From an uncultured delta proteobacterium (GTDB lineage: Bacteria; Desulfobacterota; Binatia; Binatales; Binataceae), in contig CAWENP010000004.1 of assembly GCA_963810495.1 (NCBI GenBank), positions 12,860-76,859 of the forward strand: a stretch of DNA of 64,000 nucleotides. The letters run 5' to 3'. A program made the translations under genes and the position numbers. Of this stretch, positions 63 through 22,070 are shown in pieces (positions within the stretch are counted from its first letter, which is position 1; every line of letters starts with the position of its first letter). Below the pieces are notes generated by a model. It had not been told where the DNA came from, did no database searches, and saw only the letters and a list, made by a program, of their open reading frames with translations.

Positions 63-3000
63 TCACTGCTTGCCCCTTTTTTCCGCCTTGCCCGAGGCCG
101 TCTCCGCTTGGGTGGCCACTTGCGAGGATGGGATTCCGGCGCCGGCCATAGCGGCCCGATTTGCGTATACACGCCACTGGCGCACGACATCGTCCTGCGC
201 CGCCTGGAGCAACTCGCGCGCAGCTTCGGGATTGCTGCGCGCGAGCATCGTGTAGCGCGCTTCCTGATAGGCGTACTGCTTGAGCGGGATGCTGGGCGCC
301 TTCGAGTCGAGCTGAAAAGGATTCTTGCCTTCCTTTCGCAGCGCTGGGTTGTATCGCATAAGCGGCCAATAGCCGGAGAGCACCGCGTTCTTCTGCTGGT
401 TCAGGCCGAAGGCCATGTCGTAGCCGTGCGCGATGCAATGGCTGTACGCGAGGATCAGCGAGGGACCGTCGTACGCTTCAGCCTCGAGCAAAGCCCGGAC
501 CGTGTGCGTATCGTTGCCGCCCATCGCCACGCGCGCGACGTAAACCGAGCCGTAGCTGATGGCCTCCATCGCGAGGTCCTTCTTGGCGGTCTGTTTGCCA
601 CCGGCGGCAAACTTCGCAACCGCGCCGCGCGGCGTGGATTTGGACATTTGCCCGCCCGTGTTCGAGTACACTTCAGTATCCAGCACCATCACCTTCACGT
701 TCATTCCGGAGCCGAGCACGTGATCGAGTCCGCCAAACCCGATGTCGTAGGCCCATCCGTCGCCGCCCACGAGCCAAACGCTCTTGCGCACCAGCGCATC
801 GGCAACCGCCATCAGGTCGCGCGCGTCGCTGGTTTCGAGACCTCCAATAGCCCGCTTGACCTCGGCGACCCGCTGGCGCTGCCCCGCAATGCCGGCCTCT
901 GTCGATTGATCGGCCTCCAGGATCTCCGAGACCAGGCGCCCGCCGAGCTCACTGGAAAGGCGCCGGATCAGTTCCCGCGCGTAGTCAAACCGCTTGTCGA
1001 GCGCAAGCCTCATCCCGAGCCCGAACTCGGCATTGTCTTCGAACAAGGAATTTGACCACGCCGGCCCGCGGCCTTCGGCGTTCGAGGTGTACGGGGTGGT
1101 CGGCAAGTTGCCACCGTATATAGAGGAGCATCCGGTCGCGTTCGCGATGAGCAGCCGATCGCCGAAGAGTTGGGTGAGCAGCTTGATGTAGGGGGTCTCG
1201 CCGCATCCCGCGCACGCCCCGGAAAATTCGAACAGCGGCTCGAGCAGTTGTGCATCTTTGACTTGCGCGTGCGTGAGGATGTCTCGATTGAACTCCGGCA
1301 GCGACAAGAAGAAGTCCCAGTTCCTCGCCTCCGCGTCGCGAATTGGAGGCTGAGGCGACATGTTGATCGCTTTGTGTTGCACCTCGCTCTTGCTTTTGGC
1401 CGGGCACACTTCGACGCACAGGCGGCACGCGGTGCAGTCCTCGGGCGCCACTTGCAGCGTGTAACGCATCGCCTCGAGACCGCGCCATCGGGGCGCCGCT
1501 GACTTGAAGGTCGCAGGCGCATCGTCGAGGTAACTGGGCTCGTATACCTTGGCGCGAATCACGGCATGGGGGCAGACCAGCACACACTTCCCGCACTGGA
1601 TGCACAAGTCCTCATCCCAGACCGGAATCTCCTGCGCGATGTTGAGCTTTTCCCATTTCGCCGTGCCGGTGGGAAAGGTGCCGTCGGGCGGCAGCGCACT
1701 GGTGGGAACCGAATCACCATAGCCGGCCATGAGAGCGCCGAGGACGTCGCGAACGAAGGCCGGCGCGTGCGAGGGCACGGGGGCGAGAATATCGATCGCG
1801 CTGCTGGCCGTCGCCGGTATGGTGACCTCGTGCAGATGCGCAAGTGTAGTATCCACCGCGGCGAAGTTCCGTTGCACGATCGCTTCGCCTCGCTTCCCGT
1901 ACGTTTCCTGGATCGCCGATTTGATCGCCGCGATCGCCGCATCCGGCGGCAACACGCCGCTCACGGCAAAAAAGCACGCCTGCATGATCGTGTTGATGCG
2001 GCCACCCATGCCGGCCTCGCGCGCCACCTTGTAGGCATCGATGACGAAGAGGCGAAGCTCCTTATCGAGAATCTGCTGTTGCACCTTGCGCGGCAGATGG
2101 TTCCATACCTCGTCGGGCGCGTATGGCGCATTGAGGAGGAACGTCGCTCCCTGATCCGCTGCCGCGAGCACATCCATCCGCTCGAGGAAGGCGAACTGAT
2201 GGCATCCGATGAAGCTCGCCTTGCTGATCAGGTATGTCGAACGGATCGGGTCCGGCCCGAAGCGCAGATGTGACACCGTGACCGAGCCCGCCTTCTTCGA
2301 ATCGTAGACGAAGTAGCCTTGCGCGTAACTGGGCGTGTTCTCGCCGATGATCACGACCGAGTTCTTGTTCGCACCCACGGTGCCGTCCGATCCAAATCCA
2401 TAGAAGAGCGCGCGCACAGTCAGTGGACTTTCAGTAGAAAACGCGGGGTCGAATGCGAGGCTGGAATGAGTCACGTCGTCGTGAATCCCCACCGTGAAGT
2501 GATTCTTGGGAGTCTCCTTCAGGAGTTCATCGAAGACCGCCTTCACCATCGCGGGTGTGAATTCCTTTGATGACAAGCCGTATCGTCCCCCGATGATTCG
2601 CGGCCACCTGCCATCGATGGTACCCGCCGCCCACGCCTCGCTGAGTGCCGTCACGACATCGAGATAGAGCGGCTCGCCGCTGCCGCCGGGCTCCTTGGTG
2701 CGGTCCAGCACTGCTATCGCGCGCGTCGTTCTTGGCAAAGTTGCCGCGAGAGCGGCGCTGTCGAACGGACGAAACAATCGCACTTTGAGCAGGCCGACCT
2801 TTTCACCCCTGGCGATGAGGCGCTCGATCGTCTCCTCGGCAGCGCCGGCGCTCGAGCCCATCAGGATGATGACCCGTTCCGCTCCGGGATCTCCGACATA
2901 ATCAAACAGTCGATATGCGCGGCCAGTCCGGCGCGCGAAGCGATCCATGAGGTCCTGAACAATTGTCGGACATGCGCGATAGAAGGGATTGATGGCCTCG

Positions 3001-3674
3001 CGCGCCTGAAAGAAGACATCCGGATTCTGCGCCGTCCCGCGCAGCATCGGTCGATCTGGACTGAGCGCGCGATCGCGATGCTGCCGGACGAACTTCGCAT
3101 CGATGAGCGCGCGCAGATCGTCGTCTGATAGGGGATGGATCTTGTTGAGCTCATGCGAAGTGCGGAAGCCGTCGAAAAAATGCAGAAACGGGATCCGCGA
3201 TTCGAGGGAAGCGGCATGCGCAATCAGGGCGAAGTCGTGTGCTTCCTGAACGGAATTGGAGGACAGCAAGGCGAAGCCAGTCGCGCGTGCCGCCATGACA
3301 TCGCTGTGGTCGCCGAATATCGAAAGAGCATGCGTCGCGATGGTCCGTGCCGCGACGTGGATGACGCACGCGGTAAGCTCACCCGCGATTTTGTACATGT
3401 TGGGGATCATGAGAAGAAGGCCTTGCGAGGCGGTGAAGGTCGTGCCAAGGGCTCCCGCCTGCAATGCCCCATGTAGCGCGCCGGCGGCTCCGCCTTCGCT
3501 CTGCATTTCGACCACCTTCGGCACCGTGCCAAAGATGTTCCTGCGGCCCTCATCGCTCCACTGATCGGCCCATTCGCCCATCGGCGACGACGGCGTGATG
3601 GGGTAGATCGCGATCACTTCACTCAGGCGATAGGCAACAGATGCCGCCGCTTCATTCCCGTCAAGGATTTCCAT
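63..3674 (-). CDS. por: Pyruvate:ferredoxin (flavodoxin) oxidoreductase, single-polypeptide PFOR
   Basis: 1203-aa ORF. Two 4Fe-4S ferredoxin motifs (CIQCGKCVLVCP and CTACRLCVEVCP). TPP-binding region GDGWAYDIGFGG...VLDTEVYSNTGGQ. The length and domain order are typical of NifJ/YdbK-type PFOR. Confidence 0.93.
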   Translation of the reverse strand: MEILDGNEAAASVAYRLSEVIAIYPITPSSPMGEWADQWSDEGRRNIFGTVPKVVEMQSEGGAAGALHGALQAGALGTTFTASQGLLLMIPNMYKIAGELTACVIHVAARTIATHALSIFGDHSDVMAARATGFALLSSNSVQEAHDFALIAHAASLESRIPFLHFFDGFRTSHELNKIHPLSDDDLRALIDAKFVRQHRDRALSPDRPMLRGTAQNPDVFFQAREAINPFYRACPTIVQDLMDRFARRTGRAYRLFDYVGDPGAERVIILMGSSAGAAEETIERLIARGEKVGLLKVRLFRPFDSAALAATLPRTTRAIAVLDRTKEPGGSGEPLYLDVVTALSEAWAAGTIDGRWPRIIGGRYGLSSKEFTPAMVKAVFDELLKETPKNHFTVGIHDDVTHSSLAFDPAFSTESPLTVRALFYGFGSDGTVGANKNSVVIIGENTPSYAQGYFVYDSKKAGSVTVSHLRFGPDPIRSTYLISKASFIGCHQFAFLERMDVLAAADQGATFLLNAPYAPDEVWNHLPRKVQQQILDKELRLFVIDAYKVAREAGMGGRINTIMQACFFAVSGVLPPDAAIAAIKSAIQETYGKRGEAIVQRNFAAVDTTLAHLHEVTIPATASSAIDILAPVPSHAPAFVRDVLGALMAGYGDSVPTSALPPDGTFPTGTAKWEKLNIAQEIPVWDEDLCIQCGKCVLVCPHAVIRAKVYEPSYLDDAPATFKSAAPRWRGLEAMRYTLQVAPEDCTACRLCVEVCPAKSKSEVQHKAINMSPQPPIRDAEARNWDFFLSLPEFNRDILTHAQVKDAQLLEPLFEFSGACAGCGETPYIKLLTQLFGDRLLIANATGCSSIYGGNLPTTPYTSNAEGRGPAWSNSLFEDNAEFGLGMRLALDKRFDYARELIRRLSSELGGRLVSEILEADQSTEAGIAGQRQRVAEVKRAIGGLETSDARDLMAVADALVRKSVWLVGGDGWAYDIGFGGLDHVLGSGMNVKVMVLDTEVYSNTGGQMSKSTPRGAVAKFAAGGKQTAKKDLAMEAISYGSVYVARVAMGGNDTHTVRALLEAEAYDGPSLILAYSHCIAHGYDMAFGLNQQKNAVLSGYWPLMRYNPALRKEGKNPFQLDSKAPSIPLKQYAYQEARYTMLARSNPEAARELLQAAQDDVVRQWRVYANRAAMAGAGIPSSQVATQAETASGKAEKRGKQ

Positions 3675-4425: not shown

Positions 4426-5166
4426 GTGAGCTCAATGATCCATGGGTGGCTCCCAGAGGACGTTTCGACATTCGGTCCGAATATCGACTCTATCCTCAAG
4501 CTGATCATTTACATTGTGAGCATCGCGTTCATTCTGGCCGAAGGCACGCTTTTGGCCTTCGTGATTTTGTATCGTCGCCGGAAGGGCAGGCGCGCAGCCT
4601 TTGTGCGCGGAGAGTCGCTACGCGAGCTCGCATGGGTGCTGATCCCGGTCGTCATCGTGATTTTTCTCGATGTGGCTATCGACGTTAGCGCGAAGCCGGT
4701 CTGGGATCTGGTCAAGGAGCAAAGTCCTCCTCCAGGGCTGACCGTAAAGTTGGATGCGTTCCAGTTCGGATGGGAGTTCACGTATCCGGGCCCCGACGGC
4801 CAGTTCGGCACGCACGACCTGGTCCAAACAACGACTTTAACTGTTCCCACGGGCCAGGTGATTCGCTTGCTCATGACGTCGAAGGACGCGATCCACAGTT
4901 TCTACGTGCCGCAGTTACGGCTTAAACAGGACGTCCTTCCCGGCCGGGAGATCCGTGCATGGTTCGAGGTAACGCGTCCCGGTAAATACGAAATCGCCTG
5001 CTCCCAGCTTTGCGGGGTATCGCACTTCGCCATGAAGGGTATCCTGCGCGTTCTGACGCCCGCGGAGTATCAGCAGTGGGTTAGCCAGCATTGGCCCAAG
5101 TCCGGCGCGGGGGCGGGTAAAGGCACATCAAGTGCGCGATCGTCCGCGAGCGGAAGGGAGGGATAG
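4426..5166 (+). CDS. coxB: Cytochrome c oxidase subunit II (CuA cupredoxin domain, no fused cytochrome c domain)
   Basis: Two N-terminal TM helices, then the CuA motif H-x34-C-x-E-x-C-G-x2-H-x2-M (HSFYVPQ...CSQLCGVSHFAM). GTG start at 4426, or ATG at 4435 preceded by a GGGGG Shine-Dalgarno sequence. No CxxCH motif. Confidence 0.88.
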   Translation: MSSMIHGWLPEDVSTFGPNIDSILKLIIYIVSIAFILAEGTLLAFVILYRRRKGRRAAFVRGESLRELAWVLIPVVIVIFLDVAIDVSAKPVWDLVKEQSPPPGLTVKLDAFQFGWEFTYPGPDGQFGTHDLVQTTTLTVPTGQVIRLLMTSKDAIHSFYVPQLRLKQDVLPGREIRAWFEVTRPGKYEIACSQLCGVSHFAMKGILRVLTPAEYQQWVSQHWPKSGAGAGKGTSSARSSASGREG

Positions 5167-5170
5167 GGCA

Positions 5171-6889
5171 ATGGCCGAGACCATACCCGAGGCGGCGCCA
5201 TCGGCCGAGGCCCATGAGAATATGGGCTTTTGGCGAGAATATTTATTTTCTGTCGACCACAAGGTCATCGCCAAGCAGTACCTGTTTCTGGGCCTCTTCA
5301 TGGGGTTTGTGGGAGTCGGCTTGTCCTACGTTTTCCGTTGGCAACTCGCCTGGCCCGGCACCGCCGTCCCCGGCTGGGGGAAGGTAAGCGCGACACAATA
5401 TTACGAACTCGTCACGATGCACGGAACGGTAATGGTCTTCTTCGTGGCGATGCCGGTCCTGCTTGGCGCTTTCGGCAATTTCCTCATCCCGCTGATGATC
5501 GGGGCGCGCGACATGGCCTTTCCGCGGCTCAACATGGTCTCGTTCTGGACGATTTTCGTGGGCTCGGTCCTCCTGCTTATTTCGTTTTTTGTGCCGGGTG
5601 GCGCGTCGCGCGCGGGCTGGACTCAGTATGTTCCACTCTCCGACGCGTCAAAGTATCTCCCGGGAAATTACTGGGGCGGAAACCTCTGGTTGATCGCCGT
5701 AGCGATCGATTTCGCTTCGGTCCTGATGGGCGGCATCAACTTTCTCACCACGGCAATCGCGATGCGCGCGCCGGGGATGACCATCTGGCGAATGCCGCTG
5801 CTGGTCTGGCAGGAACTGGTGGCGAGCGTCTTGTTCATGCTGAGCGTTGGACCGCTCATCGCCGGTGTGGTGATGCTGCTGTTTGACCGGATGGTGGGGA
5901 CGGGTTTCTTCCTGCCGGAAAAGGGCGCCGATCCACTGCTTTGGCAACACCTCTTCTGGTTCTTTGGCCATCCGGAGGTCTACGTAGTGGCCGTGCCGGG
6001 ACTCGGGATCGTGATGGAGATCCTCCCGGTATTCAGCCGCAAACCGATCTTTGGCTATCGCATGATCGTATGGTCCACGCTTGCGGCTGGTATCCTCAGC
6101 TTCATGGTGTGGGCGCACCATATGTTCGTGAGCGGGCTGGATCCGACGCTGGCGGCGCCTTTCAGCGCGACTACGATCGCAATTTCCGTCCCGTTCGCGG
6201 TGATGCTGTTTGCGATGATTGCGACGCTGTGGCGCGCTCAGATTACGTTCTCAACGCCGATGCTGTTCGCGCTGGGCGCGCTGGCGAATTTCTTACTCGG
6301 CGGCGTAACCGGCATTCCTTTGGGCACGGACGCGGCGGACATCTACCTGCACGACAGCTATTTTGTAATCGCCCATTTCCACAACACTCTCGTGCCGACC
6401 GCGGTCATCGCGGGATTTGGCGGGATCTACTACTGGTTCCCGAAGATGTTCGGCCGGATGATGAACGACTTCTGGGGAAAAATTCATTTCATCTTCACCT
6501 GGGTCGGCTTCAACCTGGTTTTTGTTCCGCTCTTCCTTATCGGGCTGGGCGGCGGGCAGCGCCGAATGTACATGTTGAAGGCATATACCTACTACAAGCC
6601 GCTCCAGCCGCTGCATGTGATTGCAACCATCGGCCTACTTATCATAATAGCCGGGCAGATTCCTTTCCTGGTGAATTTTTTCGTGAGCATGTTCCGCGGC
6701 AAACGTGCTGAGGCGAATCCGTGGCATGCCAACACGCTTGAATGGGCTACCGACTCTCCGCCACCGCATGAGAACTTCCACACCATACCGACGGTCGTGC
6801 GCGGGCCGTACGACTATAGCGTGCCCGGGATGGAGCAGGATTGGGCTCCGCAGAATGCAGAACTGCTGGCCGCCGCCGCACGGAATTGA
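5171..6889 (+). CDS. coxA: Cytochrome c oxidase subunit I (heme-copper oxidase catalytic subunit)
   Basis: The 585-aa ORF contains WFFGHPEVY and multiple TM helices with the conserved His ligands. The ATG at 5171 is preceded by GGGAGGGA and lies 4 nt after the coxB stop. The track ORF begins earlier at 5132. Confidence 0.93.
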   Translation: MAETIPEAAPSAEAHENMGFWREYLFSVDHKVIAKQYLFLGLFMGFVGVGLSYVFRWQLAWPGTAVPGWGKVSATQYYELVTMHGTVMVFFVAMPVLLGAFGNFLIPLMIGARDMAFPRLNMVSFWTIFVGSVLLLISFFVPGGASRAGWTQYVPLSDASKYLPGNYWGGNLWLIAVAIDFASVLMGGINFLTTAIAMRAPGMTIWRMPLLVWQELVASVLFMLSVGPLIAGVVMLLFDRMVGTGFFLPEKGADPLLWQHLFWFFGHPEVYVVAVPGLGIVMEILPVFSRKPIFGYRMIVWSTLAAGILSFMVWAHHMFVSGLDPTLAAPFSATTIAISVPFAVMLFAMIATLWRAQITFSTPMLFALGALANFLLGGVTGIPLGTDAADIYLHDSYFVIAHFHNTLVPTAVIAGFGGIYYWFPKMFGRMMNDFWGKIHFIFTWVGFNLVFVPLFLIGLGGGQRRMYMLKAYTYYKPLQPLHVIATIGLLIIIAGQIPFLVNFFVSMFRGKRAEANPWHANTLEWATDSPPPHENFHTIPTVVRGPYDYSVPGMEQDWAPQNAELLAAAARN

Positions 6890-6951
6890 AGCGGGATGCG
6901 ATGCTTTTGCGGTACGACCGGGGTGACAACTGCTAGGTAAACATAACGATC

Positions 6952-7560
6952 ATGGCAAACTCAGCCGTCGAAATCGTCCATCCTCTGCACGTAGTCGAAA
7001 GCACCTTCGAGATCGGCAAGCTTGGAATGTGGCTGTTCCTTGCCGGGGAAACGATGGTCTTCGGCGGGCTTATGGGTTGCTATACCTTGTTGATGATCGC
7101 CCGGGGAGGCTGGGGAGCGGCCGGTGCGCATGTCGCTTGGCGCCTCGGAGGCATCAACACTCTGGTTCTGTTCACCAGCAGTCTGACTGCTGCGCTCGCG
7201 CAAGGCGCTGCGCGAGATCGGGATTCAGCCGGTGTGAAGCGCTATCTCGGCGCCACCGTGGGCCTCGGCGTGCTCTTTCTGGTAATCAAGGCCTTCGAAT
7301 ATTCGGGCGATTTCGCCGAGGGTTTCACTCCCCGCGCCGGTCTTTTTTGGAGCTTCTACTACCTGATGACGGGGCTTCACGTGCTTCATCTGTTGGCCGG
7401 AGTCCTGGTCATCTTCGGCTTTCTTTTGATGATTAAACCCCGCACTCCTGAGGCCTGGCTCGAACGCAAGCTCAAATATGTGTGCCTTTATTGGTATTTT
7501 GTCGAGACAGTCTGGGTTTTCCTGTTTGCGCTGGTCTATTTGACCCCCGGTCTTGGATAG
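6952..7560 (+). CDS. coxC: Cytochrome c oxidase subunit III
   Basis: 202-aa polytopic protein with COX3-like N-terminal (WLFLAGETMVFGGL) and C-terminal (YWYFVETVWVFLF) signatures. It sits immediately downstream of coxA. Confidence 0.8.
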   Translation: MANSAVEIVHPLHVVESTFEIGKLGMWLFLAGETMVFGGLMGCYTLLMIARGGWGAAGAHVAWRLGGINTLVLFTSSLTAALAQGAARDRDSAGVKRYLGATVGLGVLFLVIKAFEYSGDFAEGFTPRAGLFWSFYYLMTGLHVLHLLAGVLVIFGFLLMIKPRTPEAWLERKLKYVCLYWYFVETVWVFLFALVYLTPGLG

Positions 7561-7852
7561 GATGAGCACTTCGATGGAACAAACGAATTTGGCTGCCGCG
7601 GACCCAGTGAAGACTTGGGGATTGCTTGTCGCCCTGTTGCTGATTGGCACCTTGGCACTGGCGCTGGGTCTGCCTCGAGGCCTGGCGCTGTGGGTCATCT
7701 TTGCCGCCGCGATCGCAGAAGCCTATGTTATCGGCCGCTACTATATGCGCCTCCGATCTGAAGACGTGCTGATATACATCCTGGCCCTGCTTCCCGTGAC
7801 GCTGGTTATCGTTCTCGCATTCGTGCTTATTCCGGACATCGTGAGGCATTAA
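7553..7852 (+). CDS. Small three-TM membrane protein, candidate oxidase subunit IV (CtaF/CoxD-like)
   Basis: 99 aa with 3 predicted TM helices. It overlaps the coxC stop and lies between two subunit-III genes. Confidence 0.4.
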   Translation: MDRMSTSMEQTNLAAADPVKTWGLLVALLLIGTLALALGLPRGLALWVIFAAAIAEAYVIGRYYMRLRSEDVLIYILALLPVTLVIVLAFVLIPDIVRH

Positions 7853-7867
7853 GCAGGAGGCTGACAC

Positions 7868-8506
7868 TTGGCTGCGGCAATTCCGCTTCGTCGAGCCTCT
7901 CATCCCAAACGCCGAGCAGCGTTTGCCGATGGCGGAGGTTCGGGTCCCGTTCGACCGGGAAGGAGAGCCGATCCGACGCTGGGCGTGCTGATCTTCATAG
8001 GCTCCGAAGTGATGTTGTTCGCAGGATTGATCAGCGCGTTTCTGGTCTCACGCGCGTCGGCGGCGTTTTGGCCGCCCTTAAACCAGCCCCGGCTTCCGGT
8101 CGCGATGACAGGACTCAACACCGGCTTTCTCGTCCTCAGCGGGTTTACGATGTGGAGAGTGGTGCGGCTGCTGCGTCAGCACGACAGGAAGCGGGCCGTG
8201 CGCTGGATGACGCTCACAAGTGCGCTCGGCGCCATCTTCCTTGCCGTTCAGGGCAGCGAGTGGGCACGACTCATTCACTTCGGGCTGACGATGACCTCGA
8301 GTGTGTATGGAGGAATGTTCTATTTGATCGTGGGCGCCCATGCGCTTCATCTCATTGCGGCGCTGGCTGTGCTGTCGTTCGTGACGGCGCGGGTCTGGCG
8401 CGGGCGCTACGAGTCAGATCTCCGTGGCATTGTGGCGTGTTCGGTCTACTGGACGTTCGTGGTGATTCTCTGGCCTATCCTTTATGCGCTGGTTTACTTC
8501 GGTTAG
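7868..8506 (+). CDS. Second cytochrome c oxidase subunit III family protein (paralogue)
   Basis: GSEVMLFAGLISAF, HALHLIAALAV and YWTFVVILW motifs fit the COX3 family. The true start is probably internal to the listed ORF. Confidence 0.65.
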   Translation: MAAAIPLRRASHPKRRAAFADGGGSGPVRPGRRADPTLGVLIFIGSEVMLFAGLISAFLVSRASAAFWPPLNQPRLPVAMTGLNTGFLVLSGFTMWRVVRLLRQHDRKRAVRWMTLTSALGAIFLAVQGSEWARLIHFGLTMTSSVYGGMFYLIVGAHALHLIAALAVLSFVTARVWRGRYESDLRGIVACSVYWTFVVILWPILYALVYFG

Positions 8507-8822
8507 CGTCGGCGTCTCCGCGACTGCCGCCAGCCTGTTCTGGGCGCCCATGGCCTACGCCTGCCCGCTGTGTTTTGCGTCGGCGGGGCCCGGCGTTGTG
8601 CACGCTTATCTGGTGAGCGCCTTTTTCATGATAGGCCTCGCCTGGGCGGTGATCGGCGGGATATGGCTATACGCCGCCCGTACGTACTCGGAAGCCGCCG
8701 AAGCAAGACATGCAGCCGCTCGCGTTGAAGTTCCTTGGATTCGAAACGCCGCTGTAGATTTCGACTGCGAGACGGCAACCAGACAACTAAAGCCCAGTGT
8801 GACTCGGAGGAGGACGACATGA
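8484..8822 (+). CDS. Small membrane protein with a CPLC (CxxC) motif directly before a TM helix; hypothetical
   Basis: The ORF lies inside the cox operon. A signal-like segment ends AYA, is followed by CPLCF, then a hydrophobic helix. No recognisable family. Confidence 0.25.
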   Translation: MRWFTSVSVGVSATAASLFWAPMAYACPLCFASAGPGVVHAYLVSAFFMIGLAWAVIGGIWLYAARTYSEAAEARHAAARVEVPWIRNAAVDFDCETATRQLKPSVTRRRTT

Positions 8823-9208
8823 CGAAGCTGCACTTACTTGGCGCGGGTTTGCTCGTGGCTGGCGCCTTTATGGTGGCCGCCGTGAGACCGGCGTCTGCGG
8901 AGACCGTAACGGTCCAGATGTTCGACACGCCGGCGAAATTTGTTCCGGACCCCGTAAAGGTTAAGGTCGGCGATACAATAAAGTGGGTGAACAAGGGCGA
9001 GACGGTCCACACGGCGACTACGGACCCGTCCTCGGCGCCCGACCCAAGCTGGGCATCGGTGCCAAAGGGGGCGGAGACATGGGACTCCGGTTACCTGAAC
9101 GCGGGGGATGACTGGAGCTACACGTTTAAGGTTCCCGGGGTTTACCAGTACTTCTGCACGACGCACGTAAAGGAAGGGATGAAAGGCGAAATCGACGTCG
9201 GGCCATAG
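8819..9208 (+). CDS. Plastocyanin/pseudoazurin-family blue copper protein (type-1 cupredoxin), secreted
   Basis: Signal peptide MTKLHLLGAGLLVAGAFMVAAV. Copper ligands H (VHTATT) and C-x2-H-x4-M (CTTHVKEGM). AGGAGG Shine-Dalgarno before the ATG at 8819; the track ORF starts earlier at 8735. Confidence 0.8.
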   Translation: MTKLHLLGAGLLVAGAFMVAAVRPASAETVTVQMFDTPAKFVPDPVKVKVGDTIKWVNKGETVHTATTDPSSAPDPSWASVPKGAETWDSGYLNAGDDWSYTFKVPGVYQYFCTTHVKEGMKGEIDVGP

Positions 9209-9296
9209 CCCGCATTCACCGGTTGTTTCGCTTTAAAGCGCGAGTTCCGGCTACGCGCGGTCTCGGCAGCCTGCAAGGTTTCAGGGGGAGAGGCGA

Positions 9297-10914
9297 ATGA
9301 AGCGTCTAAATCATCTTCTGGTCGCAGGGCTCGTGCTCTCAATAGCGTTAGCGCTGGTCCCGCTGAGAAGCACGCGCGCGGATGAATCGTCTATCTCGAA
9401 GTCAAGCTCGTCGGGCGATCCAGCCTCTGCCTCGGCGGCCGATCCGGCCAAAGCGAGGCGGGGCACGTACGAGCGGTTGCTTCGCGAGATCGATACGGAG
9501 CGCAGACATGAGGCGGAGGAAGAGCGCAAGCATGAGGACGAGGAGGCAGCGGAGCGCAAGCGTATAGAGGAACTGGAAAAGGAAGTAAGGGCGCTCCAGG
9601 CAAGCAAGGAGCAGCTCGCAAGCCAAACGAACGAAAACCAGACGCAACTCACCGCCGTCCAGAAAACTATCTCCTCTCAGCTCGGGCCCTTCGGTTTTGG
9701 CGATCGCATAAACGCCTTTCTCGGCCAACATTACTTCACGATGGTCGGAGACGCTTCCGCCGGGTACTACTACAGTCATAAAGCGGGATACAACGATCCG
9801 GTACTGGAGTTTCAAGTCAACCCGATGCTTCGACCGGCTGATTGGCTTCAGTTTTATGGTGCTTTCGGCGCGGTAGCCGGCCCCGGCGGAATTTCCTCTC
9901 TTGGTCCAACCCTTGCCAACATGCAGATCTTTCCGCTTGGACACGAGTTTCCTCTGGAGCTGGTCGCCGGGCTATTCGACATGCCCTTCGGCGACTTTTA
10001 CGAGAACCAGGGCCCGCCTTGGGTCAATCCGTTCGTAACCGCGCCGCTGCTTTACGGCGCGGAAGCGATCGAGCCGCCCGCTTCGCTGGGATTGCAGGCT
10101 CGCGGCGGGATTCAGTGGGGTCGGCTCGGGCAGGACGTTGACTATACAGTGTGGGCAGACTCGGGACCGAGTTTCGAATCGTCGCCCGGTGTGAATGTGA
10201 TCCCCGAACCGGTAATCGGCGAACGCCTGAATCCTCTCACCGGAACTAACATAGCCACCAACGGCAAGGGTTATGGCGGGAGGTTCAGGTTGTTTCCAAT
10301 ACCGGTCGACTCCGGCCTCGGACGGTTGGAACTTATGGCGACAACCTACAATGGCAAGTGGTTGGACGGGCTCTGGTACAATTCCTGGGGAGTGGGATAT
10401 GCCTATCGCGTCGGACCGTTTCGCACTCGAGGCGAGTGGGCGCAAACCTACCGTCAAATGCCCAGTCTTACGGGAGCGGCTGCGTATCCCGGTTGCTGCG
10501 GGCATGAGAACCGCCAGGGATGGTATGCGATGTTTGGTTACTTCCTCTACGGAATTCCTCATCCTTATCTTGGTGACTACCTGGAACCGAGGTTCGACAA
10601 GACTGAATTCCTGGTGCGTTACTCTGGTGTGAATCAGCGCGCCATCCTCGCCAACGATATTACGACTGCACCAGTCCAGGGCTTCAGTGGATCGCCGTCG
10701 ATCTTCAGCCCGCATGCGCGTGAAGTGGCACTGGCGCTCGACTACTGGTTTCAGCCCAATATTGTCTGGCAGAACGAGGTTGACTTCGAGCTCCCGGAGG
10801 CAGGGCGGGACGCTTTACAACTTCGTAGGTGGGGCCGCCCCACCGGTTGCGAGCAGCGTCGGCGCAACGACGAACGATGTCGCGGTGATGACTCAACTCA
10901 CGTTTGGCTTCTGA
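9297..10914 (+). CDS. Outer-membrane porin with N-terminal periplasmic coiled coil (DcaP/OprP-like); apparent frameshift near 10805
   Basis: Signal peptide, a charged coiled-coil stretch of about 70 aa (EEERKHEDEEAAERKRIEELEKEVRALQ), then aromatic-rich beta-strand sequence. After about 10805 the reading frame becomes junk. The +1 frame instead ends ...TQLTFGF-stop at 10914, a typical OMP C-terminal Phe. Confidence 0.5.
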
Positions 10915-10934
10915 TCGGCAAAGGGCCGACGACG

Positions 10935-11297
10935 ATGAAATTACTGATTGCTAAAGCCGGAATGATTTCCGTACTGCTGTTGGCCGGGACCATCGGCGCG
11001 CGCGCGGCGGATTCAGGAGCGCCTGCAGCGACCATTAGCGTGCAGAAACCGGCTGATCCCCCCAAAGCGGCGAACCAGTATGGCGCCACGCCTGAACAGC
11101 AAAAGCAGCATCTTGAGCTATTCCGCGAGGGGCAGGCGTTGTGGCCGATTTATTGTAATCACTGTCACAACGCTCGAAATCCGGCCGAGTTTGCTCCTTA
11201 TCAGTGGGACCAGATCATGATGCACATGCGCACGTTGGAGAACCTGCCGCCTCATGATCAAGATGCCATCCTGGAATATATGAAGACCGCGCGTTGA
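10935..11297 (+). CDS. Small secreted mono-haem c-type cytochrome
   Basis: Own ATG and signal peptide (MKLLIAKAGMISVLLLAGTIGARAAD) and a single CNHCH haem-binding motif. In the track it is fused in-frame to the porin ORF only because no stop intervenes. Confidence 0.6.
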   Translation: MKLLIAKAGMISVLLLAGTIGARAADSGAPAATISVQKPADPPKAANQYGATPEQQKQHLELFREGQALWPIYCNHCHNARNPAEFAPYQWDQIMMHMRTLENLPPHDQDAILEYMKTAR

Positions 11298-11387
11298 TAG
11301 GGTGTTCTACGGCGTCCAGCCTTGGAACGATTGGCATCGCTCGCCTGAGAGAGCGGGAACCGGGACGCTTTTCCAGCGTGTCTCAAC

Positions 11388-12296
11388 ATGAAAGCCACGA
11401 CTATAGAAGAGGTGGCCCAGCGTACCGCGCCAACGGTGAGCGAATACGCAGCCGCCTATTTCGAATTGACAAAGCCGCGCGTGCTCACGATGGTGCTTGT
11501 CACCGCGCTTGCGGGCTTCTACATGGGAAGCGACGAGCAGTTCGGGTTCGCGCCGGCGCTCAGAATCATAGTCGGCACCGCGTTGGCGGCCGGCGGAACA
11601 TTGGCGCTGAACGAATATGCCGAGCGCGACACGGACGCCCGGATGGAGCGGACGCGCCATCGGCCGCTGCCTTCAGGTCGTCTACGGCCGATCGAAGCGC
11701 TGATTTTCGGCGTCGTTACCGCCGTCGCTGGAATTTTCTATCTGTGGGTGGAGGTTAACCCGCTGAGCGCAATGGTTACCGCCGCGATAACCGCACTTTA
11801 TCTGGGTACATACACCCCGATGAAACGAATCACTTGGCTCTGCCACGTGATCGGCGCGGTTCCGGGCGCCCTGCCACCGGTGATCGGCTGGGCGGCGGCG
11901 CGCAACGGCCTGGGCGGAGAGCCACTGGTGCTTTTCGCCATCATGTTTCTGTGGCAGTTACCGCATTCGCTCTCGATCGCGCGGCTTTATCAGCGCGACT
12001 ACGCGCGCGCCGGGATCCGCATGTTGCCGCAGCCCGGTCGCTACGGCGATCCCGCAAATTCACTGATGATCGCGGCCGCCGCGGCGCTGCTCGTGGTTGG
12101 GATGCTGCCGGCGCTGATGAGGTTCGCCGGGCTCTTTTATGTGCCGGTCGCCCTTGTGCTTGGAGCGGTGCTGCTATTTCACTGCCTGCGCCTCGTGCTG
12201 GAAAGGCCCACGATTGCCGCGGCGCAGCGGGTCATGAAGTTTTCGCTGTTGTATCTGCCGGTGGTGCTGCTGGTGATGGTTGTTGACAAGCTCTGA
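11388..12296 (+). CDS. ctaB: Protoheme IX farnesyltransferase (heme O synthase)
   Basis: UbiA-family polytopic protein with the LNEYAERDTDARMERTRHRPLPSG motif. Last gene of the cox operon. Confidence 0.9.
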   Translation: MKATTIEEVAQRTAPTVSEYAAAYFELTKPRVLTMVLVTALAGFYMGSDEQFGFAPALRIIVGTALAAGGTLALNEYAERDTDARMERTRHRPLPSGRLRPIEALIFGVVTAVAGIFYLWVEVNPLSAMVTAAITALYLGTYTPMKRITWLCHVIGAVPGALPPVIGWAAARNGLGGEPLVLFAIMFLWQLPHSLSIARLYQRDYARAGIRMLPQPGRYGDPANSLMIAAAAALLVVGMLPALMRFAGLFYVPVALVLGAVLLFHCLRLVLERPTIAAAQRVMKFSLLYLPVVLLVMVVDKL

Positions 12297-12564: not shown

Positions 12565-13655
12565 ATGCACGCAAGACTGAGTTGGTTCAGGATCCTGGGT
12601 GATCTAGTCCACTTTCTGTGTCTCGGCTTGCGCTCCAGAGCTTCGCTCGCGGCCGAGAATCTGTTCCTGCGCAAGCAGCTGGCATTCTATCAAGAGCGCA
12701 CGGTCAAGCCCCGACGTGCCGACAATCCGACGCGCCTGACTCTGGTACTGCTCAGCCACTGGTTCAATTGGCGCGATGCTTTGACCGTGGTGAGGCCAAG
12801 ACCTTGGTCGCCTGGCAGCGCAAGGGCTTCTGCCTTTTCTGGCGCCGAAAGTCCGAAGCTGGTCGGCGACCGATCCCAGCCGCGCTTCAAGATATGATTC
12901 GACAAATTGCGCGCGAGAACCCCTCGTGGGGCGAGGAGCGGATCGCAAACGAGCTGCTGCTGAAGCTCGGTCTGTGCGTGTCGCCGCGCACAATCCGGAA
13001 GTACATGTCGAAGTTGCCGGGCGCGCCGCGCGGTGGACCTCGGGGCGATCAGCGGTGGGCGGTCTTTCTCAGGAATCACGCCCGGTTGATTATCGCCTGT
13101 GATTTCTGCGTCGTAGTAACCGCTGGGTTCCGAATCCTCTACGTGTTTGTGGTGATGGAGCATGCCTCGCGTCGGTTGATTCACCTCAACGCCACCACCC
13201 ATCCCACCGCCGCCTGGACTCGCCAACAGCTACGAGAAACCATTCCTTTCGACCACCAGTATCGGTTCATCATCCACGACCACGACGCGATCTTTTCCGC
13301 CCAATTGGACGCTTCGCTGACCCGGCTCGGCCTTAAGGTGATCACCACGCCGAGGCGCAGCCCGCAGGCGAACTCACTTTGCGAAAGGCTAATCGGGACC
13401 CTGCGGCGGGAGTGTCTGGATTGGATTATTCCGTTGAGCGAAGGACACCTGAGAAAAATCCCGACGTCGTGGATGGCCCACTACAACCGAGGCAGACCAC
13501 ATTCCTCCTTGGGACCAGGCATTCCCTATCCAAGGTTGGGCGACCCGCAAGTCAAACCCTGCGGACACCACCTTCCGGTCGGTTATCAAGTCGTGGCCAC
13601 ACCGGTCTTAGGCGGACTGCATCACGAATACAGCGTGCAGAGGCTTGCGGCGTGA
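12565..13655 (+). pseudogene. DDE (rve/integrase-core) transposase, IS3/IS481-like, disrupted by a -1 frameshift near 12797
   Basis: The N-terminus (WFRILGDLVHFLCLGLRSRASLAAENLFLRKQLAFYQ...LTLVLLSHWFNWRDALTVVRP) continues in another frame as TLVAWQRKGFCLFWRRKS...HDHDAIFS...RGRPHSSLG (rve domain). The junction reads ccaag where ccaaag would restore the frame. Confidence 0.8.
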
Positions 13656-13659
13656 CGCT

Positions 13660-14303
13660 CCCGAAGAACGATGCTGGTGGGAAGATTCCGTGGCAGGGTG
13701 TGTTGCTTTCGGTGCAGCCACGGATCCGCTTGACCCGCTCGTTCGATCAGCGCAGCCATACCTACCTAGGCTACACCCTGAAGGTGAGTGGCAGGGTCGG
13801 AAGTGAAGCCCGAGAATTTCTCGTCGGTGTAGGGCAAGGCGCGCACACCAAACACCACTTTCGGGCTGGGAACGCAGTGTCCGGTGATGCGCTGCCGGTT
13901 GCCGGATCTGCGGTTGGAGACGGTTGAATTCTACAAGGTCAGCAAGTTGAAAGTTGGACTACCTGAGGCTGAGGACGAGGCCCCCCCACCTCCGTGGCAC
14001 GGTGTGCCACCGCCGCTGGCGGTCTACCGCGAGCGCGGTCATCGGCGACTCGCCGCGCGAACCTTCCAGGAGAAGTGCTGGAGCTGCATCTGGGGATGCC
14101 GGATGCCGGTCGAGATGATTGTTGATCAGTGGAATCCGAGTCGGCGCCACTACCGAACCGAGACCTTCTGTTACGGTCCTCGTTCTTGCCCGCTCTACCA
14201 AGCCGGACCGGCGCGCAGGGTTCCCGGCCGCCGCCGTGGAATGATCTACACGGAGGAGGACTGGGTTGACGATGAGGCGACTTCACACCGCCGGGAGGAG
14301 TAG
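13660..14303 (+). CDS. Hypothetical ORF(s) between the transposase and the right IS end; two overlapping frames, possibly one frameshifted Cys-rich gene
   Basis: Track ORFs 13379-13927 and 13884-14303 lie in different frames. No family recognised. Confidence 0.2.
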
Positions 14304-16307: not shown

Positions 16308-16580
16308 GACCCGCTCTGGACCCAGCGTGCATCGTTAACCATCGCGCTTTCGCAGTCTGGGGCTACGACTCAGTAAGGCGAAGTCCTAACTACCGCGACT
16401 CTCTCAAATCAAGACACGCTGAGACCGCATAGTTGCGCCGAATGAGCTGCGCAACTTCGCAGCCGTGCGTACAGGTCAGCGAAAAACGTGGTATGAAAAG
16501 CGAACCATTTGGCCGCCCGCCTGGGTTTGCAATGCGAACGCCCTGGCGGTTCCGTCCGGGGACATTCGGGAGCGCTAGCG

Positions 16581-18983: not shown

Positions 18984-19310
18984 GGAACGAGCGCGTTAGA
19001 CTTCGTCGGCCGCGATGATCGTCGCTTGAACAGGACCGTTGTCGGCGATGTACTTCGAGATTTCCTGTGCGGTCTTTGCCAGGTCACGGCTGGGCTCCCA
19101 CCGTCGTGAGCCTACGGGTGTGCGGTTGAATAGCGGGTCACTTTTAAACAGCCTAACCTCAACGGCACGTACAGAACACCGCGCATCTCTGAGAAAACCC
19201 AGAATATGGCGCCGCTGGATGGCCGTTCCGGGAACAGCCCACACGGTAGACATGAGCCCATCTCCTTCACTTCGATTTAGGGCTGGCTATCACAGTATTC
19301 TTGCGCTGGT

Positions 19311-20381: not shown

Positions 20382-20727
20382 GTGTCGCCGACACTAGCGA
20401 TGCGGCCCCTCGCCGTCAAAGCCCTGCCTGATGAGCGCCTCGGCCGCCTTCGAACGAACCCCCTCACTATCCGCTTGGGATGCACCGGCGCGCGGCACTG
20501 CTCCTCCAAGAGGCCCGGATAATACACGTCAGATTCCGCCTTGACGCAACTCTGGACGCGCGCCTAGGCTCACCCACTCCAATACTCAGTTCTCTTGCAA
20601 CCGAGCAGTCAACTGTGAGACAAAATCCGGAATAGCCGTAACAAAGATGCCCACAGCCTGTTCTGCTCACTGCCTGACGAGCGACTAGTTGCACGCTGCT
20701 CGTCATGGACTTCAGGGAGGAGGTCCG

Positions 20728-21393: not shown

Positions 21394-21404
21394 CATCGGC
21401 CATA

Positions 21405-21448
21405 CCCTGCCGCAGCCTCAAAACGGGCTGCGGCAGGGACTCGTTTCC
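21405..21448 (+). terminator. GC-rich hairpin downstream of the OmpA-like gene
   Basis: CCCTGCCGCAGCC ... GGCTGCGGCAGGG stem; the trailing T-tract is weak. Confidence 0.4.
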
Positions 21449-21455
21449 GACGACT

Positions 21456-21851: not shown

Positions 21852-21896
21852 TGCCGCCGCCGCAGCACCTCTTTTTCCCACGCGGCTTGTTTGCCG

Positions 21897-22070
21897 CTAG
21901 GCGACCTTTCTGAAAGCGGTCGCTTCGTCGTCCTCAGCGAACCGCGTTCCTCCCGGCGAGAGCGGATACCGGCGTACCGGCGTCATACCCCATACGTACC
22001 AGTCCAGCACGGCCAGTACGGCTACGATCACTGCGCCAAGAATCAAAGTAGTGATCGACGGAAGAATCAT
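21897..22070 (-). CDS. 58-aa hydrophobic small protein with a strong Shine-Dalgarno sequence
   Basis: My own translation is MILPSITTLILGAVIVAVLAVLDWYVWGMTPVRRYPLSPGGTRFAEDDEATAFRKVA. AGGGGAGGAG lies 6 nt upstream. It is absent from the ORF track because it is under 60 aa. Confidence 0.3.
   Translation of the reverse strand: MILPSITTLILGAVIVAVLAVLDWYVWGMTPVRRYPLSPGGTRFAEDDEATAFRKVA

What the first reader, a model, noticed from the sequence alone, without database searches (positions are those of the whole stretch)
4426..12296. Atypical cytochrome c oxidase operon with cupredoxin, mono-haem cytochrome c and a porin embedded
coxB has a CuA site but no fused cytochrome c domain. The operon also encodes a type-1 blue copper protein (8819-9208) and a 120-aa CxxCH cytochrome (10935-11297), both with signal peptides. 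These are plausible dedicated electron donors. There are two subunit-III paralogues flanking a subunit-IV-like gene, a small CPLC membrane protein and a coiled-coil OM porin, all before ctaB. A porin inside a terminal oxidase operon is unusual.
Basis: partly seen in the sequence, partly recalled or inferred. Interest (0 to 1): 0.55.

Follow-up and report, generated by a model that had tools for sequence, protein, structure and literature searches.

The report
Oxidase operon with porin–cytochrome module
An uncultured soil bacterium (Candidatus Binataceae) keeps an outer-membrane pore and its own tiny haem protein, plus a blue copper protein, inside the operon for its oxygen-reducing enzyme, and the same pore-plus-haem pair heads other respiratory operons in this family, which points to an undescribed link between the cell surface and respiration.

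Summary
Window 4426-12296 (+) encodes an A1-type aa3 oxidase: coxB with CuA and no cytochrome c domain, coxA, subunit III, subunit IV and a second subunit III. It also encodes a conserved CxxC membrane protein, a type-1 cupredoxin, a stalked 16-strand porin, a ~70-residue monohaem cytochrome c and haem O synthase.

One correction: an extra G at 10803 frameshifts the porin in this window. That makes a mechanical 666-aa ORF running into the cytochrome.

The nine genes from coxB to the cytochrome keep their order in 9 other Binataceae species and in a 99%-identical strain. ctaB follows in at least six of these ten.

The main new result concerns the porin and cytochrome. They form an obligate two-gene module, adjacent in 83 of 83 loci, with several copies in some genomes. 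Paralogous pairs precede Rieske/cytochrome b operons, NirK-like genes or cupredoxins.

No curated family covers either protein, and I found no literature on the pair.

The parts list parallels the Acidithiobacillus rus operon (Cyc2, cupredoxin, coxBACD, ctaB). However, the Cyc2 defining motifs are absent, so this is an analogue and not a member.

An outer-membrane electron-entry role is my preferred reading. It is inferred, not shown.

The parts
4426..5166 (+). coxB, subunit II of an aa3-type oxidase. It has a CuA site and no cytochrome c domain. The likely start is ATG 4435.
   Evidence: COX2 1.9e-16, COX2_TM 5.2e-5. TIGR02866 CoxB 2.5e-40. CSQLCGVSHFAM and DAIHSF are seen in the translation. 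The gene call in L087 corresponds to 4435-5166.
5171..6889 (+). coxA, subunit I (572 aa), A1-type with GHPEVY. The mechanical ORF starts at 5132.
   Evidence: COX1 1.5e-138. TIGR02891 2.4e-180. The gene call in L087 is 572 aa.
6952..7560 (+). Subunit III paralogue a (202 aa, short CyoC/QoxC/CtaE-like form).
   Evidence: COX3 1e-14. CyoC 1.9e-26 and QoxC 1.8e-25. It is the copy retained next to coxA in other Binataceae cox loci, L029 and L073.
7553..7852 (+). Subunit IV-like small membrane protein. The NCBI-type call corresponds to 7574-7852 (92 aa).
   Evidence: COX4_pro 3.8e-7, 30.8 bits against a cut-off of 28.9. caa3_sub_IV 1.9e-4. Gene call.
7868..8506 (+). Subunit III paralogue b (212 aa), the extra copy specific to this operon type.
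   Evidence: COX3 4.8e-24. aa3_CtaE_Actin 9.9e-34. It is 28-33% identical to paralogue a and is present in all 9 orthologous loci with full context, but absent from cox loci L029 and L073.
8484..8822 (+). Small membrane protein. It has a signal-like N-terminus, an invariant CxxC (CPLC) and one conserved transmembrane helix. No family matches it, and it is not annotated in the NCBI relative.
   Evidence: No Pfam or NCBIfam hit. Conserved in 9 loci. Substitutions are biased to the third codon position, 56/52/138. No gene is called there in L087.
8819..9208 (+). Periplasmic type-1 (blue) copper protein, plastocyanin/amicyanin-like, with a signal peptide.
   Evidence: Copper-bind 5.6e-12. Plastocyanin 1.6e-13 and rusticyanin only 0.04. 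H64, C113, H116 and M121 are invariant in 12 sequences.
9297..10914 (+). Outer-membrane porin. In order it has a signal peptide, a disordered linker, a ~75-residue helical stalk and a 16-strand barrel with a long conserved L3 loop. A Cys-Cys(-Gly-His) insertion lies in loop L6. The gene is frameshifted here by an extra G at 10803.
   Evidence: Indel. AlphaFold2 pLDDT 75 with secondary structure. Foldseek to Omp32/OmpF/OprO/OprP/OmpM1 at E 1e-11 to 1e-9. Conservation by segment. CC motif only in cox-linked orthologues.
10935..11297 (+). Monohaem c-type cytochrome (120-aa precursor, conserved core of ~70 residues: CNHCH ... APYQWDQIMMHMR). It is the obligate partner of the porin.
   Evidence: Family alignment. 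Adjacent to the porin in 83 of 83 loci. Below threshold for Cytochrome_CBB3, 16.4 bits against 27. AlphaFold2 three-helix core with pLDDT above 90. No significant PDB fold match.
11388..12296 (+). ctaB, haem O synthase.
   Evidence: TIGR01473 8.2e-75, above its cut-off. UbiA 4.9e-55. It follows the cytochrome in L001, L004, L005, L008, L059 and L087, but no hit was found in L002, L003, L006 or L010.

Best explanation
**Shown.** This is a conserved Candidatus Binataceae operon for an A1-type aa3 cytochrome oxidase. Into it are built a plastocyanin-like cupredoxin and a two-gene outer-membrane module. The module is a stalked 16-strand general-porin-type barrel followed by a very small secreted monohaem cytochrome c that always accompanies it.

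**Inferred mechanism.**
1. The porin trimer sits in the outer membrane with its helical stalk in the periplasm.
2. [quoted passage not shown]
3. A small reduced solute enters the pore and reduces the haem. Fe2+ is the most likely solute by analogy; another redox-active metal or a soluble shuttle is possible.
4. Electrons pass to the cupredoxin and then to CuA of the oxidase.

This would be a split, two-gene analogue of the fused cytochrome-porin Cyc2. The operon as a whole would be an analogue of the Acidithiobacillus rus operon.

The second subunit III and the CxxC protein are taken to be oxidase subunits or assembly factors. Paralogous porin-cytochrome pairs would feed or drain other periplasm-facing respiratory modules in the same way.
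For: - **Gene identities:**
- **Conserved order:** the nine genes from coxB to the cytochrome keep their order in L001-L006, L008, L010 and L059 and in strain L087; ctaB follows in L001, L004, L005, L008, L059 and L087.
- **Adjacency:** the porin and cytochrome are adjacent on the same strand in 83 of 83 loci. The median gap to the first possible start codon is 11 nt, and some pairs overlap.
- **Inherited as pairs:** porin and cytochrome pairwise distances correlate at r = 0.87, and the cox-linked pair forms its own clade in both proteins.
- **Neighbours:** the genes next to paralogous pairs are all periplasm-facing electron-transfer proteins. They are class I cytochrome c, Rieske, cytochrome b, multihaem c, a NirK-like two-domain copper oxidase and cupredoxin.
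- **Same channel in every context:** the pore interior is at least 97% conserved across all contexts. This covers acidic L3 residues D228/D233/E236 and the basic wall R269/R329/R331/R343/R378/R386/R406/R441. Loops and the stalk vary. That argues against a channel tailored to each neighbouring enzyme's substrate.
- **Fold:** a 16-strand barrel matching general porins, including OprO and OprP.
- **Cyc2 parallel:** Cyc2 is described as a 16-strand OprO/P-like porin with a monohaem domain plugging the periplasmic mouth, and its cytochrome part is more conserved than its porin part (PMC8406198). The same conservation pattern is seen here.
Against: - No experiment or expression data exist, and the organism is uncultured.
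- The barrel has a classical constriction loop L3, like ordinary diffusion porins, so it may simply be a porin.
- The Cyc2 signature motifs are absent, the proteins are not fused, and no porin fusion appeared among the best 150 relatives of the cytochrome domain.
- There is no dihaem Cyc1-like cytochrome in the operon.
- The cupredoxin is not a rusticyanin (E = 0.04).
- Physical contact between the porin and the cytochrome was not modelled.
- The porin is frameshifted in this particular sequence. If the frameshift is real, the module is not functional in this strain.
- Binatota have been described as methylotrophs and alkane degraders, with no mention of iron oxidation (PMC8262859).
Confidence: 0.4

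Rival explanations
1. Ordinary parts, co-expressed. The porin is a general diffusion porin of Binataceae, with many paralogues. Its stalk perhaps tethers or organises the envelope. The small cytochrome is just a soluble periplasmic carrier shuttling electrons between inner-membrane complexes (Rieske/cytochrome b or ACIII to aa3 or NirK). The pairing would reflect co-regulation, or the stalk holding the carrier near the membrane, and not electron entry through the outer membrane.
For: - Foldseek's best matches are general porins (Omp32, OmpF/C/K36) and the stalked attachment porin OmpM1.
- The L3 loop with an acidic patch facing a basic wall is the classical diffusion-pore layout.
- The neighbours are complexes that need a soluble carrier.
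- The cytochrome domain belongs to a wider family of small periplasmic or lipoprotein cytochromes. That family gave 825 representatives at E <= 1e-3.
Against: - Co-regulation alone rarely keeps two genes adjacent in 83 of 83 paralogous loci at 37-48% porin identity.
- Most of these operons already encode a separate class I cytochrome c, so a second carrier tied to a porin needs its own reason.
- There is no SLH or other wall-binding domain ahead of the stalk.
Confidence: 0.35
2. Copper supply. The porin imports copper for the copper enzymes encoded next to it (CuA/CuB oxidase, cupredoxin, NirK-like). The cytochrome reduces Cu(II) to Cu(I). The CxxC membrane protein then hands the copper on. 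The surface-exposed Cys-Cys(-Gly-His) loop of the cox-linked porin would be the metal-binding site.
For: - The Cys-Cys insertion in the predicted extracellular loop L6 occurs only in cox-linked orthologues.
- Cox, cupredoxin and NirK-like neighbours are all copper proteins.
- A conserved periplasmic CxxC protein lies in the operon.
Against: - The commonest neighbour, in about 30 loci, is a Rieske/cytochrome b complex with no copper.
- The Cys-Cys loop is absent from every other class.
- The His of CCGH is not invariant: L059 has CCGP.
- There is no similarity to known copper porins or chaperones in Pfam or NCBIfam.
Confidence: 0.12
3. A decaying or accidental insertion. The porin-cytochrome cassette landed in the cox operon by chance, near an IS element, and is non-functional here, as the frameshift would suggest.
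For: There is a frameshift in the porin. An rve-type transposase lies 320 nt downstream of ctaB, and 1.3 kb is deleted relative to L087.
Against: - The same arrangement, with an intact porin, occurs in 9 species-level relatives and in the 99% strain.
- The cox-linked porin and cytochrome form their own conserved clade.
- A single-base G-run indel may be an assembly error.
Confidence: 0.05

Closest known systems
[quoted passage not shown]
   Same: One operon combines an outer-membrane 16-strand porin carrying a single c-type haem, a periplasmic cupredoxin, the four aa3 oxidase subunits and haem O synthase. A transposase lies nearby.
   Different: - Here the porin and the haem protein are two genes, placed after the cox genes instead of before them.
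- The porin has a coiled-coil stalk.
- There is no dihaem Cyc1.
- There is one cupredoxin, of plastocyanin type and not rusticyanin.
- There is an extra subunit III and a CxxC protein.
- The host is a neutrophilic soil/peat lineage with no known iron oxidation.
Cyc2 fused cytochrome-porin (Keffer et al. 2021, PMC8406198)
   Same: A 16-strand barrel of OprO/OprP-like general-porin fold plus one CxxCH haem domain of a few tens of residues. The cytochrome part is more conserved than the porin part.
   Different: - It is not fused.
- The AXPXFAR[QK][TY] motif is absent, and PXL is not kept (LWPIY-CNHCH-NARNPAE).
- The N-terminus of the porin is a helical stalk, not a cytochrome.
- Homology between the barrels was not testable, because no Cyc2 sequence was available.
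General trimeric porins and phosphate porins OprO/OprP; stalked attachment porin OmpM1 of Veillonella
   Same: Sixteen strands, a long L3 loop and a C-terminal Phe. Foldseek E values are 1e-11 to 1e-9. Like OmpM1, there is an N-terminal helical stalk.
   Different: - Sequence identity is about 12%.
- Pfam Porin_O_P is reached only locally, and only in some paralogues.
- There is no SLH domain.
- It is always followed by a cytochrome gene.
Standard bacterial aa3 oxidase operons (ctaCDEF / coxBAC with ctaB)
   Same: Subunits I-IV and haem O synthase. CuA and GHPEVY are present.
   Different: Two 5-helix subunit III paralogues, an extra CxxC membrane protein, and cupredoxin, porin and cytochrome genes inside the operon.
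Porin-multihaem cytochrome conduits (MtrAB, PioAB/MtoAB)
   Same: A separately encoded outer-membrane barrel and c-type cytochrome in adjacent genes.
   Different: Those systems use a 26-strand barrel that sheathes a decahaem protein. Here there are 16 strands and one haem, which cannot span the membrane.

Membership tests
A-type (aa3) haem-copper oxidase operon | Subunit I of the COX1 family with the GHPEVY (Glu of the D channel; His-Tyr) motif | tested here: met
   COX1 1.5e-138. FFGHPEVYVV is seen in the translation.
A-type (aa3) haem-copper oxidase operon | Subunit II with the CuA ligands (H ... CxxxCxxxHxxM) | tested here: met
   COX2 1.9e-16. DAIHSF and CSQLCGVSHFAM are present. Gln replaces the usual Glu between the cysteines.
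A-type (aa3) haem-copper oxidase operon | Subunits III and IV and haem O synthase | tested here: met
   COX3 twice, COX4_pro, and cyoE_ctaB 8.2e-75.
caa3-type oxidase | Cytochrome c domain fused to subunit II | tested here: not met
   No Cytochrom_C hit and no CxxCH in the 246-aa CoxB.
Type-1 cupredoxin (plastocyanin/azurin family, PF00127) | Profile match above threshold and the His-Cys-His-Met copper ligands | tested here: met
   46.4 bits against a cut-off of 21.2. H64, C113, H116 and M121 are invariant.
Rusticyanin | Match to the rusticyanin equivalog model | tested here: not met
   TIGR03095 E = 0.04, 14 bits against a cut-off of 146.7.
Cyc2 fused cytochrome-porin | A single polypeptide with an N-terminal monohaem domain followed by the porin | tested here: not met
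   Two genes are present. The porin N-terminus is a linker plus a helical stalk and has no CxxCH. There is no fusion in 83 loci or among the top 150 relatives of the cytochrome domain.
Cyc2 fused cytochrome-porin | AXPXFAR[Q/K][T/Y] 5 residues before CXXCH, and PXL 4 residues after (PMC8406198) | tested here: not met
   The consensus is ...GAKLWPIY-CNHCH-NARNPAEF... The upstream motif is absent. A Pro is at the right place but is followed by A-E, not x-L.
Cyc2 fused cytochrome-porin | 16-strand barrel with OprO/OprP-like fold | tested here: met
   The AlphaFold2 model has 16 main strands. OprO 4rjw gives E 1.7e-10 and OprP 2o4v gives 6.1e-10.
Cyc2 fused cytochrome-porin | Fe(II) oxidation at the outer membrane | not testable with these tools
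   This needs expression and biochemistry.
rus-type iron-oxidation operon | Dihaem c4-type Cyc1 encoded next to the outer-membrane cytochrome | tested here: not met
   The only CxxCH protein in 4426-12296 is the monohaem 120-aa cytochrome.
Phosphate-selective porin O/P (PF07396) | Profile match over the barrel above the gathering score | tested here: inconclusive
   There is no hit for the window porin or for P0002. There are local hits only in paralogues: P0052 at 23.7 bits over ~55 residues, and P0063 at 17.2 bits, below the cut-off. The profile against OprP in the PDB gives E = 0.46.
Class I c-type cytochrome (PF00034 / PF13442) | CxxCH plus a profile match above threshold | tested here: inconclusive
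   CxxCH is invariant. Cytochrome_CBB3 gives 16.4 bits against 27. The best PDB sequence match is R. marinus cytochrome c at E = 0.003. The three-helix model has no significant Foldseek match.
Porin-multihaem conduits (MtrAB/PioAB/MtoAB) | A ~26-strand barrel enclosing a decahaem cytochrome | tested here: not met
   16 strands and one haem.
OmpM/SLH attachment porins | An N-terminal SLH domain ahead of the stalk | tested here: not met
   There is no SLH hit. Residues 22-54 are predicted disordered and are not conserved.

The most novel reading that the evidence does not exclude
Binataceae, a widespread uncultured soil and peat lineage, would possess a previously unrecognised family of split porin-cytochrome units. 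Each unit is a stalked 16-strand porin plus a ~70-residue monohaem partner. The units would act as outer-membrane electron gates, and dedicated paralogues would be wired to the aa3 oxidase (via a cupredoxin), to Rieske/cytochrome b complexes and to NirK-like enzymes. That would give these bacteria an unreported capacity to oxidise Fe(II), or another external donor or shuttle, at the cell surface.
Probability: 0.3. Interest if true: 0.8.

Novelty: new variant of a known kind. Interest (0 to 1): 0.62.

Why it matters
If the porin-cytochrome pair is an electron gate, it would be a second, unfused solution to the problem that Cyc2 solves. It would be found in an abundant soil and peat phylum currently described only as methylotrophic and alkane-degrading. 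It would also supply a sequence marker, the adjacent gene pair, for a process that is hard to track in metagenomes.

Even on the conservative reading, several things need explaining. These are a respiratory operon that always carries its own outer-membrane protein, two subunit III paralogues, and an unannotated CxxC protein. In addition, both module proteins currently lack any curated family.

Tried and rejected
**Searches that gave nothing useful**
- Pfam and NCBIfam gave nothing usable for the porin, the cytochrome or the CxxC protein.
- Profile searches against PDB sequences gave only coiled-coil noise for the porin and a weak R. marinus cytochrome c match for the cytochrome.
- The promoter and terminator scan was at shuffled background, so it is uninformative on operon structure.
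- Foldseek of the cytochrome model found no significant match.
- I looked for a Cyc2 sequence in the supplements of Keffer et al. to run a profile comparison. None is held.
- The profile search with the cytochrome alignment listed only the closest 120 of 1438 hits, so taxonomic breadth outside Binataceae stayed unresolved.
- The exhaustive representative search showed a wider family but has no names or context.
- No second porin-cytochrome module and no Rieske/cytochrome b operon lie in this window.

**Readings considered and dropped**
- That the 666-aa ORF is a natural porin-cytochrome fusion. It is a 1-bp frameshift artefact of this sequence.
- That the porin is a substrate channel for the neighbouring enzyme. 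The pore lining is the same next to an oxidase, a NirK-like gene and a bc-type complex.

Full report
**1. What is there**

On the + strand between 4426 and 12296 lie ten genes with overlaps or gaps of at most 90 nt. Family scans identify most of them:
- CoxB: COX2 1.9e-16, CuA motif CSQLCGVSHFAM, no cytochrome c domain and no CxxCH.
- CoxA: COX1 1.5e-138, GHPEVY present, so A1-type.
- A 202-aa subunit III: COX3 1e-14.
- A subunit IV-like protein: COX4_pro 3.8e-7, just above the gathering score.
- A second 212-aa subunit III: COX3 4.8e-24.
- A plastocyanin-like cupredoxin: Copper-bind 5.6e-12.
- Haem O synthase: 8.2e-75.

The cupredoxin's four type-1 copper ligands (H64, C113, H116, M121) are invariant in twelve relatives.

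The small CPLC ORF (8484-8822) matches no family. It is nevertheless conserved in nine orthologous loci as a signal-like N-terminus, an invariant CxxC and one transmembrane helix. Its substitutions fall mainly on third codon positions, 56/52/138. It is therefore a real gene, although it is not called in the NCBI annotation of a 99% relative.

**2. A correction to the gene model**

Mechanically, 9297-11297 is one 666-aa ORF. The porin's genuine C-terminus, ending in the typical TQLTFGF, lies in the +1 frame and stops at 10914. Joining the frames at 10805/10807 gives a 538-aa protein that aligns end to end with homologues.

Comparison with a 99.3%-identical contig (L087, GCA_049581525.1) shows a single extra G at window 10803, in GCAGGGCGGG. 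I cannot tell whether this is an assembly error or a real lesion in this strain. The relatives have an intact gene.

The cytochrome (10935-11297) starts 20 nt after the repaired porin stop.

**3. Organism and conservation**

All homologues come from Candidatus Binataceae (Binatota) metagenome-assembled genomes.

A scan of species-representative genomes with the porin alignment gave 80 loci. A tblastn search with the ten window proteins gave these results:
- The order coxB-coxA-cox3-cox4-cox3-CxxC-cupredoxin-porin-cytochrome is kept in L001-L006, L008, L010 and L059 (porin identity 68-84%) and in L087.
- L007 and L009 are orthologous but are cut by contig ends.
- ctaB follows in six of the ten.
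- Other Binataceae cox loci (L029, L073) have a single subunit III and none of the extras.

**4. The porin and the cytochrome are one module**

In every one of the 80 loci, the porin homologue is followed on the same strand by a homologue of the small cytochrome. About 70 of these are paralogous porins at 37-48% identity that are not next to an oxidase.

With my own ORF extraction, 82 of 83 porin genes have a downstream CxxCH...MHMR protein. The remaining one has a tblastn hit. The median distance to the first possible start codon is 11 nt.

Several genomes carry more than one pair, for example L001+L027, L006+L057 and L008+L048. L038 and L065 have two pairs in tandem.

Pairwise distances of porins and of their cytochromes correlate at r = 0.87. 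The cox-linked pair forms its own clade in both proteins.

I clustered the neighbouring ORFs and scanned representatives against Pfam (confirmed on public gene calls). The recurrent contexts are:

| Context of the porin-cytochrome pair | Loci |
|---|---|
| The cox operon described here | 9, plus 2 truncated |
| Followed by a cupredoxin, sometimes then an NHL/beta-propeller protein | 12 |
| Followed by class I cytochrome c, GltD-like FeS flavoprotein, Rieske protein, cytochrome b and multihaem cytochrome c | about 30 |
| Followed by cytochrome c and a NirK-like two-domain copper oxidase | 12 |
| Smaller groups | remainder |

Every recurrent partner is a periplasm-facing electron-transfer component.

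**5. Anatomy of the two proteins**

*Porin.* The AlphaFold2 model (84-sequence alignment, pLDDT 75, pTM 0.66) has these parts:
- a signal peptide;
- a disordered, unconserved linker (22-54);
- a long helix (56-129), consistent with the coiled-coil hits in Pfam;
- sixteen main strands with a 35-residue loop between strands 5 and 6, the position of the constriction loop L3 in classical porins.

Foldseek matches general trimeric porins at E 1e-11 to 1e-9 with about 12% identity. The matches include Omp32, OmpF/C/K36, OprO at rank 6, OprP at rank 19, and the stalked attachment porin OmpM1.

Across all 84 sequences, L3 and strands 9 and 12-15 are the most conserved parts. Acidic L3 residues and a set of arginines on the wall are at least 97% conserved. 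L4, L6, L8, the periplasmic turn T6, the stalk and the linker vary. The channel interior is therefore the same whatever enzyme is encoded next door.

The cox-linked orthologues alone carry an insertion with adjacent cysteines, PGCCGH (CCGP in L059), in L6. By standard porin topology L6 should face outward. This remains unexplained.

*Cytochrome.* It has a Sec signal peptide. In the cox-linked clade there is also a Pro/Ala-rich linker. The conserved core is about 70 residues: LWPIYCxxCHNAR...APYxWDxIMMHMR...AILEYLK. The model has three helices with pLDDT above 90 and no significant PDB fold match.

The cytochrome is below threshold for Cytochrome_CBB3. Its closest solved relative by sequence is R. 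marinus cytochrome c at E = 0.003.

An exhaustive profile search found 825 representative proteins at E <= 1e-3. Most are 90-150 aa. Some have lipoprotein signals, some are fused to a class I cytochrome domain, and a few are giant multi-repeat proteins. None of the best 150 looks like a porin fusion: all but five are at most 231 aa, and those five are multi-repeat cytochrome proteins of 342-1412 aa.

**6. Mechanism**

*Shown:* the gene identities, the conserved order, the obligate pairing, the fold class, and the shared pore lining.

*Inferred:* the pair works together at the outer membrane.

My preferred reading rests on two published descriptions:
- Cyc2 is a 16-strand OprO/P-like porin whose single-haem domain is thought to plug the periplasmic mouth, so that Fe2+ must enter the pore. 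Its cytochrome part is more conserved than its porin part (PMC8406198).

The Binataceae operon contains the same kinds of parts, with the cytochrome-porin split into two genes. On this reading a small reduced solute enters the pore, reduces the docked cytochrome, and electrons run through the cupredoxin to CuA.

I put this at about 0.4. The main rival, at about 0.35, is that this is an ordinary diffusion porin co-expressed with, or scaffolding, an ordinary periplasmic carrier. A copper-supply role (about 0.12) is suggested by the Cys-Cys loop, the CxxC protein and the copper enzymes nearby. It does not fit the commonest neighbour, a Rieske/cytochrome b complex.

**7. Comparison and membership**

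The oxidase is a member of the A-type family. It is not caa3.

The cupredoxin is a member of the plastocyanin/azurin family and is not a rusticyanin.

The module is not a member of the Cyc2 family. It is unfused, the AXPXFAR[QK][TY] motif is absent, and PXL is not kept. It resembles Cyc2 only in architecture.

It is not an Mtr/Pio-type conduit: it has 16 strands and one haem.

Membership of Porin_O_P is inconclusive.

**8. Literature**

The genomic survey of Binatota describes complexes I, II, ACIII and IV, and does not mention porins, cupredoxins or iron oxidation (PMC8262859). Searches combining Binatota, Binatia or Binataceae with cytochrome c oxidase or Cyc2, and two Cyc2 evolution papers, gave no description of this module.

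**9. Verdict**

The interesting object is less the atypical oxidase operon than the porin-cytochrome pair embedded in it. That pair is a conserved family-wide module with several copies in some genomes, no curated family and no published description. Its function is inferred by analogy only, so I score interest at 0.62 and classify it as a new variant of a known kind.

Noticed in passing
window 10803 and 13904; window 12468/12469: Relative to the 99.3-99.6% identical contig L087 there are six 1-2 bp indels in 20 kb. One frameshifts the porin. One splits the ORF after the IS element (13379-13927 / 13884-14303). The window also lacks 1.3 kb between ctaB and the transposase; in L087 that stretch carries a VTT-domain gene and a UPF0182 gene.
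   Followed up: partly
window 12618-13655 (+): An IS-type transposase (rve_3 1.6e-13, HTH_32) lies immediately downstream of ctaB. It marks the end of the conserved synteny.
   Followed up: partly
window 8484-8822 (+): A conserved CxxC single-pass membrane protein with no family assignment. No gene is called here in the NCBI annotation of the near-identical contig. It could be an oxidase subunit or an assembly factor.
   Followed up: partly
porin residues 399-403 (window about 10491-10505): Adjacent cysteines (PGCCGH) lie in the predicted outward-facing loop L6. They are present only in the cox-linked porin clade. The His is replaced by Pro in L059. The role is unknown.
   Followed up: partly
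L017, L026, L029, L031, L040, L047, L057 and about 25 further loci, 11.5-16 kb in locus coordinates: Paralogous porin-cytochrome pairs head an operon encoding a class I cytochrome c, a GltD-like FAD/FeS protein, a Rieske protein, cytochrome b and a membrane-anchored multihaem cytochrome c. This is an unusual Rieske/cytochrome b complex with a flavoprotein subunit.
   Followed up: partly
L012, L021, L036, L038, L044, L065, L084 (for example L084 11900-13666): Other pairs are followed by a cytochrome c, a NirK-like two-domain copper oxidase and, in some of these loci (for example L084), a second cytochrome c. A sigma-54 activator and universal stress protein genes lie upstream in L084.
   Followed up: partly
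L037, L046, L049, L054, upstream of the porin on the opposite strand: A distant haem-copper oxidase pair (24-27% identity to CoxA) sits next to Rieske-type modules. Its oxidase or NO-reductase subtype was not determined.
   Followed up: no
proteins P0254, P0269, P0277, P0321; P0286, P0290, P0298: The small cytochrome domain also occurs in giant proteins with 8-17 matched stretches; one of these, P0254, was scanned and also has PKD domains. It also occurs in about 110-aa proteins with lipoprotein signal sequences. This points to a broad cytochrome c domain family that is not captured above threshold by Pfam.
   Followed up: partly
window 63-3674 (-): A pyruvate:ferredoxin/flavodoxin oxidoreductase (1203 aa) is transcribed divergently from the cox operon. 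A 750-nt non-coding spacer separates them and holds three of the indels.
   Followed up: no
window 16509-31141 (+): Three MMPL/RND-like transporter genes lie together with a YCF48-like BNR-repeat protein and a DUF1302 protein. This looks like a repeated export or uptake cluster unrelated to the finding.
   Followed up: no
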